A stretch of 64,000 nt of DNA. It comes from Escherichia coli (GTDB taxonomy: Bacteria; Pseudomonadota; Gammaproteobacteria; Enterobacterales; Enterobacteriaceae). The translations under genes and the position numbers were made by a program. The notes under the pieces were generated by a model, which saw nothing but the letters and a program-made list of their open reading frames with translations, ran no database searches and was not told the origin of the DNA. The stretch lies in assembly GCF_003334315.1 (NCBI RefSeq), contig NZ_QOWR01000012.1. The stretch is one strand, 5' to 3'. Of this stretch, positions 1-56,135 are shown piece after piece (positions within the stretch are counted from its first letter, which is position 1; each line of letters begins with the position of its first letter).

Positions 1-75
1 GGTCGTTAGCTCAGTTGGTAGAGCAGTTGACTTTTAATCAATTGGTCGCAGGTTCGAATCCTGCACGACCCACCA
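1..75 (+). tRNA. lysZ: tRNA-Lys (anticodon UUU), 5' end truncated by window edge (first G missing)
   Basis: Matches the full tRNA-Lys copy at 208..283 base for base, ends in CCA; anticodon loop cttttaa. Confidence 0.9.
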
Positions 76-156
76 ATTTAAAGGTGGTTACTGGTAGAGA
101 ACGTGAAGGATAACGTTGCGTTAGCAACGGCCCGAAGGGCGAGACGAAGTCCAGTC

Positions 157-174
157 ATCCTGCACGACCCACCA
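157..174 (+). repeat. 18-nt copy of the tRNA-Lys 3' end (atcctgcacgacccacca) inside the inter-tRNA spacer
   Basis: Exact identity to the 3' acceptor/T-arm end of both flanking tRNA-Lys genes. Confidence 0.7.
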
Positions 175-207
175 TCCTGAATGATTAAAGCAGCATAATC
201 CCGCAAG

Positions 208-283
208 GGGTCGTTAGCTCAGTTGGTAGAGCAGTTGACTTTTAATCAATTGGTCGCAGGTTCGAATCCTGCACGACCCACCA
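208..283 (+). tRNA. lysQ: tRNA-Lys (anticodon UUU), last gene of the lysT operon
   Basis: 76-nt cloverleaf sequence gggtcgttagctcagttggtagagcagttgacttttaatcaattggtcgcaggttcgaatcctgcacgacccacca with encoded CCA. Confidence 0.95.
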
Positions 284-37045: not shown

Positions 37046-37531
37046 ATGTCGCAACTGACCCATATCAACGCCGCTGGCGAAGCGCACATGGTGGATGTCT
37101 CCGCCAAAGCGGAAACCGTGCGTGAAGCGCGGGCGGAAGCCTTTGTCACCATGCGCAGCGAGACGCTGGCGATGATTATTGATGGTCGCCACCACAAAGG
37201 CGACGTATTTGCCACTGCGCGTATTGCCGGTATTCAGGCGGCAAAACGCACCTGGGATCTGATCCCGCTCTGTCATCCGCTGATGCTCAGCAAAGTTGAA
37301 GTCAATTTACAGGCCGAGCCGGAGCACAATCGGGTGCGTATAGAAACCTTATGCCGCCTGACCGGGAAAACCGGTGTCGAAATGGAAGCATTAACCGCGG
37401 CCTCCGTGGCGGCGCTGACCATTTATGACATGTGCAAAGCGGTGCAAAAAGATATGGTGATTGGTCCGGTACGTTTGCTGGCGAAGAGCGGCGGCAAGTC
37501 GGGTGACTTTAAGGTGGAAGCGGATGATTAA
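37046..37531 (+). CDS. moaC: Cyclic pyranopterin monophosphate synthase
   Basis: 161-aa ORF in the moa operon. Confidence 0.95.
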
Positions 37532-37769
37532 AGTTCTTTTTTTCGCCCAGGTGCGCGAGTTGGTGGGAACAGATGCAACCGAAGTGGCTGCGGATTTCCC
37601 AACTGTTGAAGCGTTACGCCAGCACATGGCTGCGCAGAGCGATCGCTGGGCGCTGGCGCTGGAAGATGGCAAATTACTGGCTGCCGTCAACCAGACGCTG
37701 GTGAGTTTTGACCATCCGCTGACTGACGGCGACGAAGTAGCTTTCTTCCCGCCGGTAACCGGAGGTTAA
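37524..37769 (+). CDS. moaD: Molybdopterin synthase sulfur-carrier subunit
   Basis: ORF trimmed to [15 protein letters not shown] (81 aa) ending in the GG motif; overlaps the moaC stop. Confidence 0.93.
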
Positions 37770-37770
37770 G

Positions 37771-38223
37771 ATGGCAGAAACCAAAATTGTTGTTGGTCCG
37801 CAGCCGTTCAGCGTAGGAGAAGAGTACCCGTGGCTGGCGGAGCGTGACGAAGACGGTGCGGTAGTCACCTTTACTGGTAAGGTGCGCAACCATAACCTGG
37901 GCGACAGCGTCAACGCATTAACCCTCGAACACTATCCGGGGATGACTGAAAAAGCACTGGCAGAAATTGTTGATGAAGCGCGTAACCGCTGGCCGCTGGG
38001 GCGCGTCACGGTGATTCACCGCATCGGGGAATTATGGCCGGGCGATGAAATCGTTTTTGTCGGTGTCACCAGTGCGCATCGCAGCAGTGCGTTTGAAGCC
38101 GGGCAGTTTATTATGGATTATCTCAAAACCCGCGCACCGTTCTGGAAGCGCGAAGCCACGCCGGAAGGCGACCGCTGGGTTGAAGCCCGGGAGAGCGATC
38201 AGCAGGCGGCAAAACGCTGGTAG
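37771..38223 (+). CDS. moaE: Molybdopterin synthase catalytic subunit
   Basis: 150-aa ORF in the moa operon. Confidence 0.95.
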   Translation: MAETKIVVGPQPFSVGEEYPWLAERDEDGAVVTFTGKVRNHNLGDSVNALTLEHYPGMTEKALAEIVDEARNRWPLGRVTVIHRIGELWPGDEIVFVGVTSAHRSSAFEAGQFIMDYLKTRAPFWKREATPEGDRWVEARESDQQAAKRW

Positions 38224-38232
38224 TTTTTGTTA

Positions 38233-38259
38233 GCCGGATAAGGCACCGCTGCGTCCGGC
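38233..38259. repeat. REP-like palindrome downstream of moaE
   Basis: gccggataaggcaccgctgcgtccggc. Confidence 0.55.
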
Positions 38260-38358
38260 AATTTCACCGCTCAGTACATGCGTTTACGCTGCGTCGATGC
38301 ACAGCCTCATCATTTTGCAGTATCCTTAAGATATTCCTTATATCTTCAGGAGATCGTC

Positions 38359-39063
38359 ATGGACAGATTCCCACGTTCTGATTCAATCGTACAACCCCGG
38401 GCTGGCTTGCAAACTTATATGGCGCAAGTCTATGGCTGGATGACCGTTGGCTTGTTGCTGACCGCATTTGTTGCCTGGTATGCGGCTAATTCCGCGGCCG
38501 TGATGGAGCTGTTGTTCACTAACCGTGTCTTTTTAATCGGTCTGATCATCGCGCAATTAGCATTGGTTATTGTGTTATCAGCGATGATTCAAAAGCTGAG
38601 CGCAGGTGTAACGACGATGCTCTTTATGCTTTATTCGGCGCTGACGGGTCTTACGCTTTCCAGTATATTCATTGTCTATACCGCTGCTTCTATCGCCAGT
38701 ACTTTCGTCGTTACTGCCGGGATGTTCGGCGCAATGAGCCTGTACGGTTACACCACGAAGCGCGATTTAAGTGGCTTTGGCAATATGCTGTTTATGGCGT
38801 TAATCGGCATTGTGCTGGCATCGCTGGTCAACTTCTGGTTGAAAAGCGAAGCATTGATGTGGGCAGTTACCTACATCGGCGTGATTGTCTTTGTCGGATT
38901 GACGGCGTATGACACGCAGAAACTGAAAAATATGGGTGAGCAGATTGATACCCGCGACACGTCGAACCTGCGCAAATATTCCATTCTTGGCGCGTTAACC
39001 TTGTATCTGGACTTCATCAACCTGTTCCTGATGTTGCTGCGAATTTTTGGCAACCGCCGTTAA
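38359..39063 (+). CDS. ybhL: Bax inhibitor-1/YccA-family inner membrane protein
   Basis: ORF trimmed to MDRFPRSDSIVQPR (234 aa); multi-TM. Confidence 0.88.
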   Translation: MDRFPRSDSIVQPRAGLQTYMAQVYGWMTVGLLLTAFVAWYAANSAAVMELLFTNRVFLIGLIIAQLALVIVLSAMIQKLSAGVTTMLFMLYSALTGLTLSSIFIVYTAASIASTFVVTAGMFGAMSLYGYTTKRDLSGFGNMLFMALIGIVLASLVNFWLKSEALMWAVTYIGVIVFVGLTAYDTQKLKNMGEQIDTRDTSNLRKYSILGALTLYLDFINLFLMLLRIFGNRR

Positions 39064-39081
39064 TTCTTTTTCACCATCAAT

Positions 39082-39110
39082 ATCCCGGCCATGTGTCGGG
39101 ATTTTTTTTC
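39082..39110 (+). terminator. Rho-independent terminator of ybhL
   Basis: Stem atcccg/cgggat followed by a T8 run. Confidence 0.8.
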
Positions 39111-39267
39111 TTACTAAAAACGACACTTAACAAGTACCAGGTATAAAATACGCCTTATGGCGAGCGGAAGCGTTTTCCGTATCCATAAATACAAAAGTAT
39201 TTTGTATGCGTGGTTTTAAATTTATTGATGGTGAATATTAATATTTTTTCTAAGGACAACTAAAAGA

Positions 39268-39981
39268 ATGGAATCATACTCGCAAAACAGCAATAAATTA
39301 GATTTTCAGCACGAGGCCAGGATATTAAACGGTATATGGCTCATTACCGCTTTAGGTTTGGTGGCAACCGCAGGACTGGCCTGGGGAGCTAAGTATCTCG
39401 AAATTACGGCAACCAAATATGATTCACCACCAATGTATGTCGCCATAGGGTTATTATTACTTTGTATGTATGGCTTAAGTAAGGATATCAACAAGATAAA
39501 TGCCGCCATCGCAGGCGTAATATATCTGTTTTTACTCTCTTTGGTGGCGATTGTCGTTGCAAGTTTAGTTCCTGTATATGCCATTATCATCGTGTTCAGC
39601 ACTGCGGGCGCGATGTTTTTAATCAGTATGCTGGCCGGTTTATTATTTAATGTTGATCCTGGTTCTCACCGTTTTATCATTATGATGACGTTGACAGGGT
39701 TGGCCCTGGTAATCATCGTGAATGCGGCATTAATGAGTGAACGGCCCATTTGGGTAATAAGTTGCTTAATGATTGTGTTATGGTCAGGCATTATCTCGCA
39801 TGGACGAAATAAGCTCCTTGAATTGGCGGGGAAATGCCATAGTGAAGAGTTGTGGAGTCCGGTTCGTTGCGCTTTTACAGGTGCATTAACACTCTATTAC
39901 TATTTTATCGGCTTCTTTGGGATACTTGCCGCGATAGCTATAACGCTTGTCTGGCAAAGGCATACGCGTTTTTTTCATTAG
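39268..39981 (+). CDS. ybhM: Bax inhibitor-1-family inner membrane protein (paralog of ybhL)
   Basis: 237-aa multi-TM ORF recognised as YbhM. Confidence 0.85.
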   Translation: MESYSQNSNKLDFQHEARILNGIWLITALGLVATAGLAWGAKYLEITATKYDSPPMYVAIGLLLLCMYGLSKDINKINAAIAGVIYLFLLSLVAIVVASLVPVYAIIIVFSTAGAMFLISMLAGLLFNVDPGSHRFIIMMTLTGLALVIIVNAALMSERPIWVISCLMIVLWSGIISHGRNKLLELAGKCHSEELWSPVRCAFTGALTLYYYFIGFFGILAAIAITLVWQRHTRFFH

Positions 39982-40016
39982 CCGTAAATGCACATACTAA
40001 AGAACTTAACTAAACT

Positions 40017-40973
40017 TCACATCGCCGCTTCATTTTTCGCCCGTAGCTTCTTCGCCTGGCTTTCCAGCAACAGGTAACAGATCAGCGCCAGCAGCAGTGG
40101 GATAAAGTAATACAGCACACGGTAAGCGAGTAGGGCGGCGATAATTGTACCTTTGGAGGTATGCTCCCCAGCCAGTAGTGCGATAAACACCGCTTCCAGC
40201 ACACCGATCCCCGCCGGAATATGCACGATGACGCCAGCAATACTACTAACCAGTAACACGCCCAGTACAAAGAAATAGTTCACGCTTTGACCAAGTAACA
40301 GCCAGATAATCGCCCCCATTACCATCCAGTTAACGCTGGAAATCAGCATCTGAGCGAGGGCGAATTTCCATGAAGGCAGCACCAGCTTTTGCCCTTTGAT
40401 GGTCATATGGCGGTGCTTCGCGAAAGCGCAAAACCACAAATAAACCGCGATAATCATCAGTAAGCCAATGCCGAGAATACGCAGCGTAGTTTGATCGACA
40501 TACCAGTGATCCGGCAACTCCACCACGCCTGCGGTAAAGATAATCCCTGCCAGTAAAATGTAGCCCAGCCAGTTGGTGGTAATACTGAGCGAGAAAATCC
40601 GCGTAATAGTGCTACCGGGCAACCCCAGACGAGAGTACAAACGATAGCGCATACCAATGCCGCCGACCCAGGTACTGAGCGTCAGGTTGAAGGCGTAGCA
40701 GATAAACGACACCAGCATCACCTGGCGCTTCGCCAGTTTGTGACCGCAGTAAAAGCGGGCGAGCAGGTCATAGCAGCCGTAAATCAGATAGCTGACGACC
40801 ACCAGCCCGACCGCACTAAGCAGCGCAACGCGATTGTAGTCGCGGATGACCTTCCAGACCTCTTCCCAGTCCACTTTTTTGGCGTAGACCACCAGCAACA
40901 CAATCACCGCGATAAAAAACAGCCAGGTGAGGATCTTCTTTGCTAAGCGCCAGCGCGGGTGTGATTTACTCAT
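40017..40973 (-). CDS. ybhN: Inner membrane protein, lysylphosphatidylglycerol-synthase TM-domain-like family
   Basis: 318-aa multi-TM ORF; start overlaps the clsB stop. Confidence 0.85.
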   Translation of the reverse strand: MSKSHPRWRLAKKILTWLFFIAVIVLLVVYAKKVDWEEVWKVIRDYNRVALLSAVGLVVVSYLIYGCYDLLARFYCGHKLAKRQVMLVSFICYAFNLTLSTWVGGIGMRYRLYSRLGLPGSTITRIFSLSITTNWLGYILLAGIIFTAGVVELPDHWYVDQTTLRILGIGLLMIIAVYLWFCAFAKHRHMTIKGQKLVLPSWKFALAQMLISSVNWMVMGAIIWLLLGQSVNYFFVLGVLLVSSIAGVIVHIPAGIGVLEAVFIALLAGEHTSKGTIIAALLAYRVLYYFIPLLLALICYLLLESQAKKLRAKNEAAM

Positions 40974-50762: not shown

Positions 50763-50861
<99 letters not shown>

Positions 50862-56019: not shown

Positions 56020-56135
56020 GTAGCGTAAACGCCTGATCCGTCCAACGGTTCGGATTTTGTAGGCCTGATAAGACGCGGTAGCGTCGCATCAGGCATCTGT
56101 TGCCGGATGCGGCGTAAACGCCTTATCCGTCCTAC
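56020..56135. repeat. BIME with at least two REP elements
   Basis: gtaggcctgataagacgcggtagcgtcgcatcaggca and tgccggatgcggcgtaaacgccttatccgtcctac. Confidence 0.75.

What the first reader, a model, noticed from the sequence alone, without database searches (positions are those of the whole stretch)
38359..39981. Adjacent Bax inhibitor-1 family paralogs ybhL and ybhM
Two polytopic membrane proteins of the same family lie in tandem on the same strand, separated by a strong terminator and a 204-bp spacer, so they are probably independently regulated duplicates.
Basis: partly seen in the sequence, partly recalled or inferred. Interest (0 to 1): 0.25.

Follow-up and report, generated by a model that had tools for sequence, protein, structure and literature searches.

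The report
Known diverged membrane-protein gene pair ybhL/ybhM
These are the already annotated E. coli genes ybhL and ybhM, two very distantly related Bax-inhibitor-1-type membrane proteins with separate promoters; ybhL is a conserved core gene, while ybhM is the one copy kept here of a fast-diverging, copy-number-variable gene set whose neighbours in other strains and species resemble toxin-immunity proteins.

Summary
ybhL (38359-39063, 234 aa) and ybhM (39268-39981, 237 aa) lie on the + strand, 204 bp apart. Both match Pfam Bax1-I (1.1e-62 and 1.1e-20). BLASTP gives 25% identity (E 1e-12), and profile-profile probability is 99.7%.

An intrinsic terminator (39082-39110) follows ybhL. A published RpoD genomic-SELEX promoter and an H-NS site lie in the spacer. 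"Independently regulated paralogs" is therefore supported, and the pair is already annotated this way in RefSeq, so the finding itself is ordinary.

Three things are new:
- **Conservation differs sharply.** YbhL is 84-94% conserved across genera and keeps the two aspartates aligned with those of the solved homologue YetJ. YbhM has Gly179 and Tyr212 there.
- **YbhM belongs to a tiny clade found only in Enterobacteriaceae**, whose members are 22-44% identical to each other.
- **The slot between ybhL and ybhN varies.** It holds one to three YbhM-like genes plus small genes, some with weak matches to immunity families (Sip4, SUKH-4). About 14% of complete E. coli genomes carry an extra paralog.

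An immunity-like role for YbhM is a hypothesis (probability about 0.2). No toxin gene was found beside any YbhM-like gene.

The parts
38233..38259 (+). REP-like G+C-rich hairpin just after the moaE stop codon; marks the left boundary of the ybhL unit
   Evidence: The fold shows a hairpin, GCCGGAU..AUCCGGC type. The 80-nt fold as a whole is not better than shuffles (z -0.02). Calling it a REP element rests on my own knowledge of the REP consensus, not on a test.
38298..38326 (+). ybhL sigma-70 promoter (TGCACA-17-TATCCT)
   Evidence: The motif listed for the moaE>ybhL spacer in the RpoD genomic-SELEX table (PMC3946193) is found at these bases in the sequence. It was not picked up by the simple consensus scan.
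38359..39063 (+). ybhL coding sequence, 234 aa: the canonical BI-1/TMBIM-type membrane protein, keeping Asp185 and Asp218
   Evidence: ORF. Pfam PF01027 1.1e-62. Aligns to the solved B. subtilis YetJ (4pgr), E 1e-08, with the YD and LYLDFINLF motifs matching. 84-94% identical in Salmonella and Kluyvera. dN/dS 0.028.
39082..39110 (+). intrinsic terminator of ybhL (8-bp stem, 5-nt loop, T8)
   Evidence: -11.6 kcal/mol, z -2.35. The stem is kept with a different loop in E. coli L007. An analogous hairpin plus T run follows ybhL in Salmonella.
39109..39300 (+). haplotype-specific segment holding the ybhM promoter, the 5' UTR and the first 11 codons of ybhM. About 14% of E. coli genomes have a different segment here, 906 bp in L007, that carries an extra YbhM-like gene
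   Evidence: blastn of the window against L007: homology stops at 39108 and resumes at 39301. The A-type gene is found in 754 of 5426 genomes, 749 of them with at least 80% cover.
39120..39147 (+). ybhM sigma-70 promoter (ACGACA-16-TATAAA) in an AT-rich spacer reported to bind H-NS
   Evidence: PMC3946193 lists this motif and an H-NS flag for the ybhL>ybhM spacer. The consensus scan found the same -35 with an alternative -10 (ACGACA-18-TAAAAT). GC is 0.36 here.
39268..39981 (+). ybhM coding sequence, 237 aa: a divergent BI-1-family paralog of the YbhM-like clade, with Gly179 and Tyr212 in place of the two aspartates
   Evidence: ORF. Pfam PF01027 1.1e-20. Alignments. AlphaFold2 model with 7 helices, pLDDT 84.3. 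GC 0.426 and GC3 0.454, against 0.485 and 0.609 for ybhL; dN/dS 0.104.
40017..40973 (-). ybhN (LPG_synthase_TM family), convergent with ybhM; right boundary of the variable slot
   Evidence: ORF. RefSeq annotation in K-12. Only 35 bp separate the two stop codons, and no terminator-like site was found there.

Best explanation
The window carries the E. coli genes ybhL and ybhM. Both encode seven-helix inner-membrane proteins of the Bax-inhibitor-1/TMBIM family. Each appears to be its own transcription unit.

ybhL is the conserved core gene. It has its own sigma-70 promoter and intrinsic terminator. It keeps the TM6/TM7 aspartate pair that forms the pH sensor of the solved homologue YetJ, so it most likely acts as a pH-gated cation (Ca2+/H+) leak or membrane-homeostasis protein. 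That function is inferred.

ybhM is an old, strongly diverged paralog. It sits in an AT-rich stretch reported to bind H-NS, right after the ybhL terminator. It most plausibly arose from a ybhL-type gene by tandem duplication inside the Enterobacteriaceae (inferred). It then diverged fast and lost both aspartates, so it cannot use the YetJ-type gating. Its role has probably shifted to binding or protecting another membrane component (inferred, function untested).

The position between ybhL and the convergent ybhN is a variable slot. Different strains and genera carry one to three YbhM-like paralogs there plus small accessory genes. This window has the minimal one-copy form.
For: **Identity and homology**
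-.

**Separate units**
- Terminator: with equivalents in L007 and Salmonella.
- SELEX promoters in both spacers, and H-NS in the second only: PMC3946193.

**Core versus accessory behaviour**
- YbhL is 84-94% identical across Escherichia, Salmonella and Kluyvera. YbhM-like proteins are 22-44% identical to each other, 18-27% to YbhL and 14-18% to YccA.
- dN/dS is 0.104 for ybhM, against 0.028 for ybhL, 0.031 for moaE and 0.038 for ybhN.
- GC3 is 0.454 for ybhM against 0.609 for ybhL, and the spacer GC is 0.36.

**Aspartate pair**
- YbhL D185 and D218 align with the YD and LYLDF aspartates of YetJ.
- E. coli YbhM has G and Y at those columns. No YbhM-like protein has both aspartates.

**Narrow clade**
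- Only 97 hits at E<=1e-3 among 1.84 billion representatives. The full-length relatives at 25-35% identity whose names were looked up are all from Enterobacteriaceae.
- The nearest proteins outside the clade are YbhL-type.
- A scan of one genome for each of 100,044 species found only Kluyvera, Superficieibacter and Pseudocitrobacter.

**Variable slot**
-.
- The extra A-type paralog is in 754 of 5426 E. coli genomes.
Against: - No transcript data were examined here. The promoter evidence is in vitro SELEX plus motif matches, and read-through of the terminator is not excluded.
- Low GC, H-NS binding and patchy distribution would also fit horizontal acquisition of ybhM rather than duplication in place.
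- Loss of the aspartate pair is not specific to YbhM. E. coli YccA has Glu and Ser at the same columns, so the loss alone does not say what YbhM does.
- ybhM is interrupted by IS elements or truncated in some strains, so it is dispensable at least in those.
Confidence: 0.85

Rival explanations
1. ybhM is not a local duplicate of ybhL. It is a horizontally acquired BI-1-family gene that landed in an insertion hot spot at the convergent ybhL/ybhN junction.
For: - ybhM and the spacer have low GC (0.36-0.44, against 0.53-0.58 in the flanks), and GC3 is 0.454.
- An H-NS site lies in the spacer (PMC3946193).
- The slot's gene content differs between strains and genera.
- A YbhM-like gene also sits elsewhere: beside guaA in Salmonella and near a vgrG gene in Superficieibacter.
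- The segment 39109-39300 is haplotype-specific.
Against: - The nearest relatives outside the clade are YbhL-type proteins.
- YbhM-like genes lie directly after ybhL in Escherichia, Salmonella, Kluyvera, Pseudocitrobacter and an unassigned metagenomic contig.
- No donor lineage outside the Enterobacteriaceae was found.
- None lies on a true plasmid or phage record.
- Low GC3 can also follow from low expression.
Confidence: 0.25
2. YbhM-like proteins are immunity-type membrane proteins. The ybhL-ybhN slot is an orphan immunity island, and YbhM protects the inner membrane against pore-forming or depolarising toxins delivered by competitors, for example by type VI secretion.
For: - **Salmonella ybhL locus:** the YbhM-like gene is followed by two membrane proteins (202 and 186 aa) that match only NCBIfam NF053812 'immunity protein Sip4' (E 3.4e-05 and 8.2e-08, over about 135-150 of the 189 profile positions).
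- **Second Salmonella site:** the same three-gene module recurs beside guaA, with Sip4 matches of 3.5e-08 and 3.1e-04. In one of the two loci shown (L011) a TsiV-family gene (PF11876) lies a few genes upstream.
- **Controls:** eight reversed or shuffled versions of these proteins gave no Sip4 hit.
- **Sip4 itself** is the integral-membrane immunity protein for the pore-forming effector Ssp4 (PMC12669606).
- **E. coli GF4-3:** the slot ends with a protein matching the Pfam SUKH-4 immunity family (E 3.7e-05).
- **Other slot genes** are small acidic cytosolic proteins or single-pass membrane proteins.
- **Superficieibacter:** the YbhM-like gene lies two genes from a vgrG gene.
- Fast divergence, copy-number variation and loss of the channel aspartates fit recruitment to a binding role.
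Against: - No toxin or effector gene is adjacent to a YbhM-like gene in any context examined.
- All immunity-family matches belong to neighbours, not to YbhM. They are weak: 21-34 bits against a curated cut-off of 240.
- Within E. coli, ybhM is near-universal and under purifying selection, unlike typical strain-variable immunity genes.
- PADLOC and NCBIfam give nothing for YbhM.
- No paper in the searched library links Bax-inhibitor proteins to immunity.
Confidence: 0.2
3. YbhM works like YccA, as a modulator or substrate-decoy of the membrane protease FtsH/HflKC rather than as an ion-leak protein.
For: - YccA, annotated 'FtsH protease modulator', also lacks the aspartate pair. It has Glu and Ser at the two columns, the same pair of residues as several YbhM-like proteins.
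- One source names some related BI-1-family proteins 'FtsH-binding integral membrane protein'.
- YbhM has a hydrophilic N-terminal tail of about 20 residues that differs between haplotypes.
Against: - YbhM is only 16% identical to YccA.
- The YccA equivalog model NF007765 does not hit YbhM at all, and hits YbhL at 23 bits against a cut-off of 353.
- E. coli YbhM has Gly and Tyr, not Glu and Ser.
- No interaction data exist.
Confidence: 0.15
4. ybhM is a decaying gene with no remaining function, a relic of the duplication.
For: - IS1 or IS5 insertions and an internal deletion occur in several strains.
- Many truncated protein clusters exist, including Shigella dysenteriae partials.
- dN/dS is about 3.7 times that of ybhL.
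- H-NS binding suggests low expression.
Against: - dN/dS of 0.10 is far below 1.
- The ORF is full length in the window and in the divergent strain L002.
- At least 80% of the region is present in 5376 of 5426 genomes.
- The AlphaFold2 model is confident.
Confidence: 0.05

Closest known systems
Bacillus subtilis YetJ (PDB 4PGR and related entries), the solved prokaryotic Bax-inhibitor-1 homologue
   Same: YbhL aligns with YetJ over residues 34-231 (E 1e-08). The YD motif of TM6 and the LYLDFINLF motif of TM7 match. Both window proteins belong to the same Pfam family, PF01027.
   Different: - YbhM gives no sequence hit to any PDB chain, either alone or as a clade profile.
- YbhM has Gly179 and Tyr212 where YetJ and YbhL have the two aspartates.
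- The YbhM model did not retrieve YetJ in structure searches.
- The pH-sensor role of the aspartate pair in YetJ is from my own knowledge (Chang et al., Science 2014), not from a tool.
E. coli YccA, the FtsH protease modulator (third BI-1-family paralog of E. coli)
   Same: Same Pfam family. It also lacks the aspartate pair (Glu and Ser), as most YbhM-like proteins do.
   Different: YccA is 23% identical to YbhL and 16% to YbhM. The NCBIfam YccA equivalog model fails for both window proteins. yccA lies about 210 kb from ybhL in the K-12 record and is not part of this locus.
Eukaryotic TMBIM proteins (BI-1/TMBIM6, TMBIM5)
   Same: Same Pfam family. [quoted passage not shown] That parallels the FtsH link of YccA.
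   Different: The eukaryotic proteins work in the ER, Golgi or mitochondria. No direct comparison with them was run here.
Sip4, inner-membrane immunity protein to the pore-forming T6SS effector Ssp4 of Serratia marcescens
   Same: Membrane proteins directly downstream of the YbhM-like gene in Salmonella match the Sip4 model, and only that model. Sip4 is a small integral inner-membrane protein that neutralises a depolarising toxin (PMC12669606).
   Different: The match is to neighbours of YbhM-like genes in Salmonella. It does not involve YbhM, and no such gene is in the window. Scores are 21-34 bits against a cut-off of 240. No Ssp4-like effector gene is nearby.
Orphan immunity gene arrays of polymorphic toxin systems (for example SUKH-family arrays)
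   Same: The slot is a compact, same-strand run of small, fast-diverging genes with variable content and no toxin gene. It includes a SUKH-4 match and Sip4-like genes, and it has low GC.
   Different: Most slot genes have no family assignment. YbhM itself is nearly fixed in E. coli. No link to a toxin has been shown.

Membership tests
Bax inhibitor-1 / TMBIM family (Pfam PF01027) | Significant full-length match to the family profile | tested here: met
   YbhL 1.1e-62, model positions 1-207 of 207. YbhM 1.1e-20, model positions 3-205 of 207. HHalign probability between the two profiles 99.7%.
Bax inhibitor-1 / TMBIM family (Pfam PF01027) | Seven membrane-spanning helices | tested here: met
   The AlphaFold2 model of YbhM has 7 long helices (pLDDT 84.3, pTM 0.79). 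YbhL aligns end to end with the solved YetJ. A crude hydropathy scan shows multiple hydrophobic segments in both.
Bax inhibitor-1 / TMBIM family (Pfam PF01027) | TM6/TM7 aspartate pair (the pH sensor of YetJ) | tested here: not met
   Met for YbhL (D185 and D218 align with the YetJ aspartates). Not met for YbhM (G179 and Y212), nor as a pair for any YbhM-like protein. YccA, an accepted family member, also lacks the pair. The feature therefore defines the channel-type subgroup, not the family.
Bax inhibitor-1 / TMBIM family (Pfam PF01027) | Three-dimensional similarity to the solved YetJ fold | tested here: inconclusive
   [not shown]
Bax inhibitor-1 / TMBIM family (Pfam PF01027) | pH-dependent Ca2+ leak activity | not testable with these tools
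   Needs a flux assay with purified protein in liposomes.
YccA-type FtsH modulators (NCBIfam NF007765) | Score above the curated equivalog cut-off (353 bits) | tested here: not met
   YbhL scores 23.3 bits. YbhM has no hit.
Tandem paralogs forming separate transcription units | Homologous, adjacent and on the same strand, with a terminator and a promoter between them | tested here: met
   Homology. Layout. Terminator. Promoter motif from the published SELEX study found in the sequence. Transcripts in vivo were not examined.
Immunity proteins of T6SS or polymorphic toxin systems | Encoded next to a cognate toxin or effector gene | tested here: not met
   No recognisable toxin gene lies next to a YbhM-like gene in the contexts examined. 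The nearest T6SS gene is a vgrG two genes away in Superficieibacter.
Immunity proteins of T6SS or polymorphic toxin systems | Sequence membership in a described immunity family | tested here: not met
   YbhM matches no family in NCBIfam or PADLOC, and only Bax1-I in Pfam. Only its neighbours in other genomes match Sip4, SUKH-4 or TsiV.
Immunity proteins of T6SS or polymorphic toxin systems | Neutralises a specific toxin | not testable with these tools
   Needs competition or co-expression experiments.

The most novel reading that the evidence does not exclude
YbhM-like proteins are a previously unrecognised offshoot of the Bax-inhibitor-1 family, found only in Enterobacteriaceae. On this reading they lost the channel aspartates and were recruited as membrane-embedded immunity-type proteins. 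The slot between ybhL and ybhN would then be an orphan immunity island protecting the inner membrane against pore-forming toxins of competitors, with E. coli K-12 keeping the minimal one-gene version.
Probability: 0.2. Interest if true: 0.65.

Novelty: already known. Interest (0 to 1): 0.28.

Why it matters
As stated, the finding adds nothing new. RefSeq already names both genes as Bax-inhibitor-1/YccA family proteins, and their separate promoters have been published.

The wider comparison is of modest interest. E. coli has three BI-1-family genes, and only YbhL keeps the aspartate pair that explains ion leak in the solved homologue. Experiments on "bacterial BI-1" should therefore not treat the three as interchangeable.

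The ybhL-ybhN junction also turns out to be a variable slot holding fast-diverging YbhM-like genes and immunity-like neighbours. That gives a concrete, testable lead for the function of a gene (ybhM) for which the papers retrieved here report no function.

Tried and rejected
- **Rfam, region 37500-40800 at E<=1:** only a chance-level PsrR1 match over the terminator (21 bits against a gathering score of 42). There is no known RNA in the spacer.
- **Small ORFs in the spacer:** nothing above 34 aa and nothing convincing.
- **Fold of the putative ybhM 5' UTR:** not better than shuffles (z -1.66).
- **Fold of the moaE-ybhL spacer:** z -0.02.
- **PDB sequence search:** nothing for YbhM alone or for the clade profile.
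- **The search for related loci with the full clade alignment:** A four-sequence alignment found only three loci among 100,044 species genomes.
- **Second homologue search with the clade profile:** swamped by E. coli sequences, with little new.
- **tblastn against plasmids:** only chromosome-sized or chromosome-derived records. **Against phages:** no match.
- **PADLOC:** nothing apart from a chance-level DrmC hit (E 0.017) on the Superficieibacter 864-aa protein.
- **The 864-aa Superficieibacter neighbour:** no match in the PDB, no NCBIfam hit, and no precomputed Pfam hit.
- **Literature:** no paper links Bax-inhibitor proteins with T6SS immunity, and none mentions DUF3969. The 2013 Ssp4 paper is not held. 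The third gene of the Serratia ssp4 insertion could not be identified from the text.
- **Rejected readings:** recent redundant duplicates (22-25% identity), an operon, and a pseudogene. Reasons are given under the rival explanations.
Full report
**What is in the window**

The region is the E. coli moaABCDE-ybhL-ybhM stretch, followed by the convergent ybhN-clsB-ybhP genes.
- ybhL is 38359-39063 (234 aa) and ybhM is 39268-39981 (237 aa), both on the + strand. The spacer is exactly 204 bp.
- A megablast of 38200-40020 found the region in 5425 of 5426 complete E. coli genomes. In 5376 of them at least 80% of the query is covered.
- RefSeq annotates the K-12 genes as ybhL and ybhM, both 'Bax inhibitor-1/YccA family protein'.

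The finding's coordinates and description are therefore correct, and the pair is already annotated as such.

**Are they the same family?**

Yes.
- Pfam PF01027 (Bax1-I) matches YbhL at 1.1e-62 and YbhM at 1.1e-20, each over essentially the whole model.
- BLASTP of one against the other gives 25% identity over 151 residues, E 1e-12.
- A profile of YbhM-like proteins against a profile of YbhL-type proteins gives HHalign probability 99.7%, E 3.6e-25, over 206 columns.
- The AlphaFold2 model of YbhM has seven long helices (pLDDT 84.3).

**Are they separately transcribed?**

The evidence points that way, though it is indirect.
- Nineteen bases after the ybhL stop there is an 8-bp hairpin (five G-C pairs, 5-nt loop) followed by eight T (39082-39110). 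Its energy is -11.6 kcal/mol, z -2.35 against shuffles.
- The stem is kept with a different loop in an E. coli strain of another haplotype. An analogous hairpin plus T run follows ybhL in Salmonella.
- A published genomic-SELEX study with RpoD holoenzyme lists a constitutive promoter in the moaE>ybhL spacer (TGCACA-17-TATCCT) and another in the ybhL>ybhM spacer (ACGACA-16-TATAAA). It flags an H-NS site in the second spacer only (PMC3946193).
- Both motifs are in the window, at 38298-38326 and 39120-39147. The simple scan found the same -35 element.
- The spacer is AT-rich (GC 0.36).
- I saw no transcript data, so read-through is not excluded.

**How alike are they really?**

Not very, and they behave differently in evolution.
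- YbhL is 84-94% identical between Escherichia, Salmonella and Kluyvera.
- The gene at the ybhM position in those genera is only 27-30% identical to E. coli YbhM.
- Between the window and a divergent E. coli strain, dN/dS is 0.028 for ybhL, 0.031 for moaE, 0.038 for ybhN and 0.104 for ybhM. GC3 is 0.609 for ybhL against 0.454 for ybhM.
- ybhM is thus under purifying selection but less tightly. It is broken by IS1 or IS5, or shortened, in some strains.

**The aspartate pair**

- YbhL aligns with the solved B. subtilis homologue YetJ (E 1e-08). The alignment shares the TM6 'YD' and TM7 'LYLDFINLF' motifs. The two aspartates in these motifs form the pH sensor of YetJ (my own knowledge, Chang et al. 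2014).
- In YbhL they are D185 and D218. In E. coli YbhM the aligned residues are G179 and Y212.
- No member of the YbhM-like clade has both aspartates. Most have Glu, Lys or Gly at the first column and Ser, Gly, Cys or Tyr at the second.
- E. coli YccA, annotated as an FtsH modulator, also lacks the pair (Glu and Ser).

So of the three E. coli paralogs only YbhL looks like a YetJ-type leak protein. This is an inference from sequence.

**A very small clade**

- A full HMMER scan of 1.84 billion representatives with YbhM gave only 97 hits at E<=1e-3. After E. coli-type sequences, the next full-length relatives are at 25-35% identity.
- Those whose names were looked up come from Escherichia, Salmonella, Kluyvera georgiana, Pseudocitrobacter and Superficieibacter.
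- A fold search adds Kosakonia and Phytobacter.
- The nearest proteins outside the clade are YbhL-type, not YccA-type.
- A pattern scan of one genome for each of 100,044 species found only three loci.
- No copy is on a genuine plasmid or phage record.

**A variable slot**

Genomic contexts show that the position between the ybhL terminator and ybhN changes between strains and genera. The layouts seen were:
- **K-12 and the window:** ybhL-ybhM.
- **About 14% of complete E. coli genomes** (754 of 5426, 749 at >=80% cover): ybhL-A-ybhM, where A is another YbhM-like gene 24% identical to YbhM.
- **Some Escherichia:** ybhL-A-ybhM-C-DUF3969-73 aa.
- **E. coli GF4-3:** adds two more genes.
- **E. coli F8111-1SC3:** no ybhM is annotated, but the DUF3969 pair is present.
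- **Salmonella:** ybhL, a YbhM-like gene, then 202-aa and 186-aa genes.
- **Kluyvera:** ybhL followed by a YbhM-like gene, with no ybhN operon.
- **Pseudocitrobacter and a metagenomic contig:** up to eight genes, including two YbhM-like copies.

In the window, bases 39109-39300 (promoter, 5' UTR and the first 11 codons of ybhM) have no counterpart in the A-carrying haplotype. That haplotype has 906 bp instead.

E. coli YbhM is closest to the C type (34%). Salmonella's gene is closer to the A type (32%) than to YbhM (27%). The genes called 'ybhM' in the two genera are therefore probably different members of an old array.

**What the neighbours look like**

- The two Salmonella membrane proteins downstream of the YbhM-like gene match one NCBIfam model only, NF053812 'immunity protein Sip4' (E 3.4e-05 and 8.2e-08).
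- The same three-gene module recurs beside guaA in Salmonella, with Sip4 matches of 3.5e-08 and 3.1e-04. In one of the two loci shown, a TsiV-family gene lies a few genes upstream.
- Eight reversed or locally shuffled versions gave no Sip4 hit. The best spurious E-value was 0.0017, to an unrelated family.
- Sip4 is the four-helix inner-membrane immunity protein against the pore-forming type VI effector Ssp4 of Serratia (PMC12669606).
- The last gene of the E. coli GF4-3 slot matches Pfam SUKH-4 immunity protein (E 3.7e-05).
- Other slot genes are small acidic cytosolic proteins or single-pass membrane proteins without family assignment.
- In Superficieibacter a YbhM-like gene lies two genes upstream of a vgrG gene.

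**How far this goes**

These observations suggest that the slot collects immunity-type genes and that YbhM-like proteins might be such proteins themselves. The case is weak in four ways.
- No toxin gene is next to any YbhM-like gene.
- The immunity matches are weak (21-34 bits against a cut-off of 240), and they belong to neighbours in other genomes.
- ybhM is almost fixed in E. coli.
- No paper in the searched library makes this link.

I rate the idea at about 0.2. A YccA-like role at FtsH is rated at about 0.15.

**An unexplained point**

**Verdict**

The finding as stated is already known and ordinary. The added value is the contrast between a conserved, canonical YbhL and a diverged YbhM that lacks both aspartates, and the discovery that ybhM is the resident member of a variable, possibly immunity-related gene slot.

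Noticed in passing
window 39109-39300; L007 5902-6807: The ybhM promoter, 5' UTR and first 11 codons are haplotype-specific. In about 14% of complete E. coli genomes (O104:H4 among them) the corresponding segment, 906 bp in L007, carries an extra YbhM-like gene (A type). ybhM then starts 69 bp after it, with a different N-terminus.
   Followed up: yes
L005 4732-5908; L010 6735-7900: Salmonella has a three-gene module, a YbhM-like gene plus two membrane proteins weakly matching the T6SS immunity protein Sip4. It occurs at two chromosomal sites: after ybhL and beside guaA. At the guaA site, one of the two loci shown (L011) also has a TsiV-family gene and an IS element nearby.
   Followed up: partly
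L017 5719-7263 (E. coli GF4-3): The slot is extended by a DUF3969 gene, a 152-aa gene and a 186-aa gene. The 186-aa protein matches Pfam SUKH-4 immunity protein (E 3.7e-05).
   Followed up: partly
window 39063-39082 and 39223-39242: A 20-nt inverted repeat (85% complementary, 140 nt apart, with an exact 11-nt core) brackets the ybhL terminator and the ybhM promoter. By a rough estimate it is borderline against chance in this AT-rich stretch.
   Followed up: no
window 39982-40016: Only 35 bp separate the stop codons of the convergent ybhM and ybhN, and the scan found no terminator-like hairpin there. Transcripts of the two genes may therefore overlap.
   Followed up: partly
window 35388-35532: Molybdenum cofactor riboswitch upstream of moaA (Rfam RF01055, 103.6 bits), as annotated in K-12.
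   Followed up: yes
window 38233-38259: REP-like G+C-rich hairpin immediately after moaE, upstream of the ybhL promoter.
   Followed up: partly
window 1-280; 24335-24405; 34082-34123; 50785-50827; 56062-56132: Other Rfam hits in the window: two tRNAs with an RtT element at the left end, two naRNA4 matches and two ES036 matches.
   Followed up: no
H1 and H4; L003 2570-2959; L004: ybhM is disrupted in some strains. IS1 insertions occur in strains EM18-18-42 and JS316, and IS5 in RR1/HB101 (PMC5379014). One strain has a 390-bp truncated ORF. In strain EC14 an IS91-linked deletion removed ybhM, ybhN and part of clsB.
   Followed up: partly
L013 5001-10275 (Superficieibacter electus): A YbhM-like gene away from ybhL, followed by an 864-aa protein with no Pfam, NCBIfam or PDB match, and then a vgrG (Phage_GPD) gene at the contig end.
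   Followed up: partly
[not shown]
   Followed up: partly
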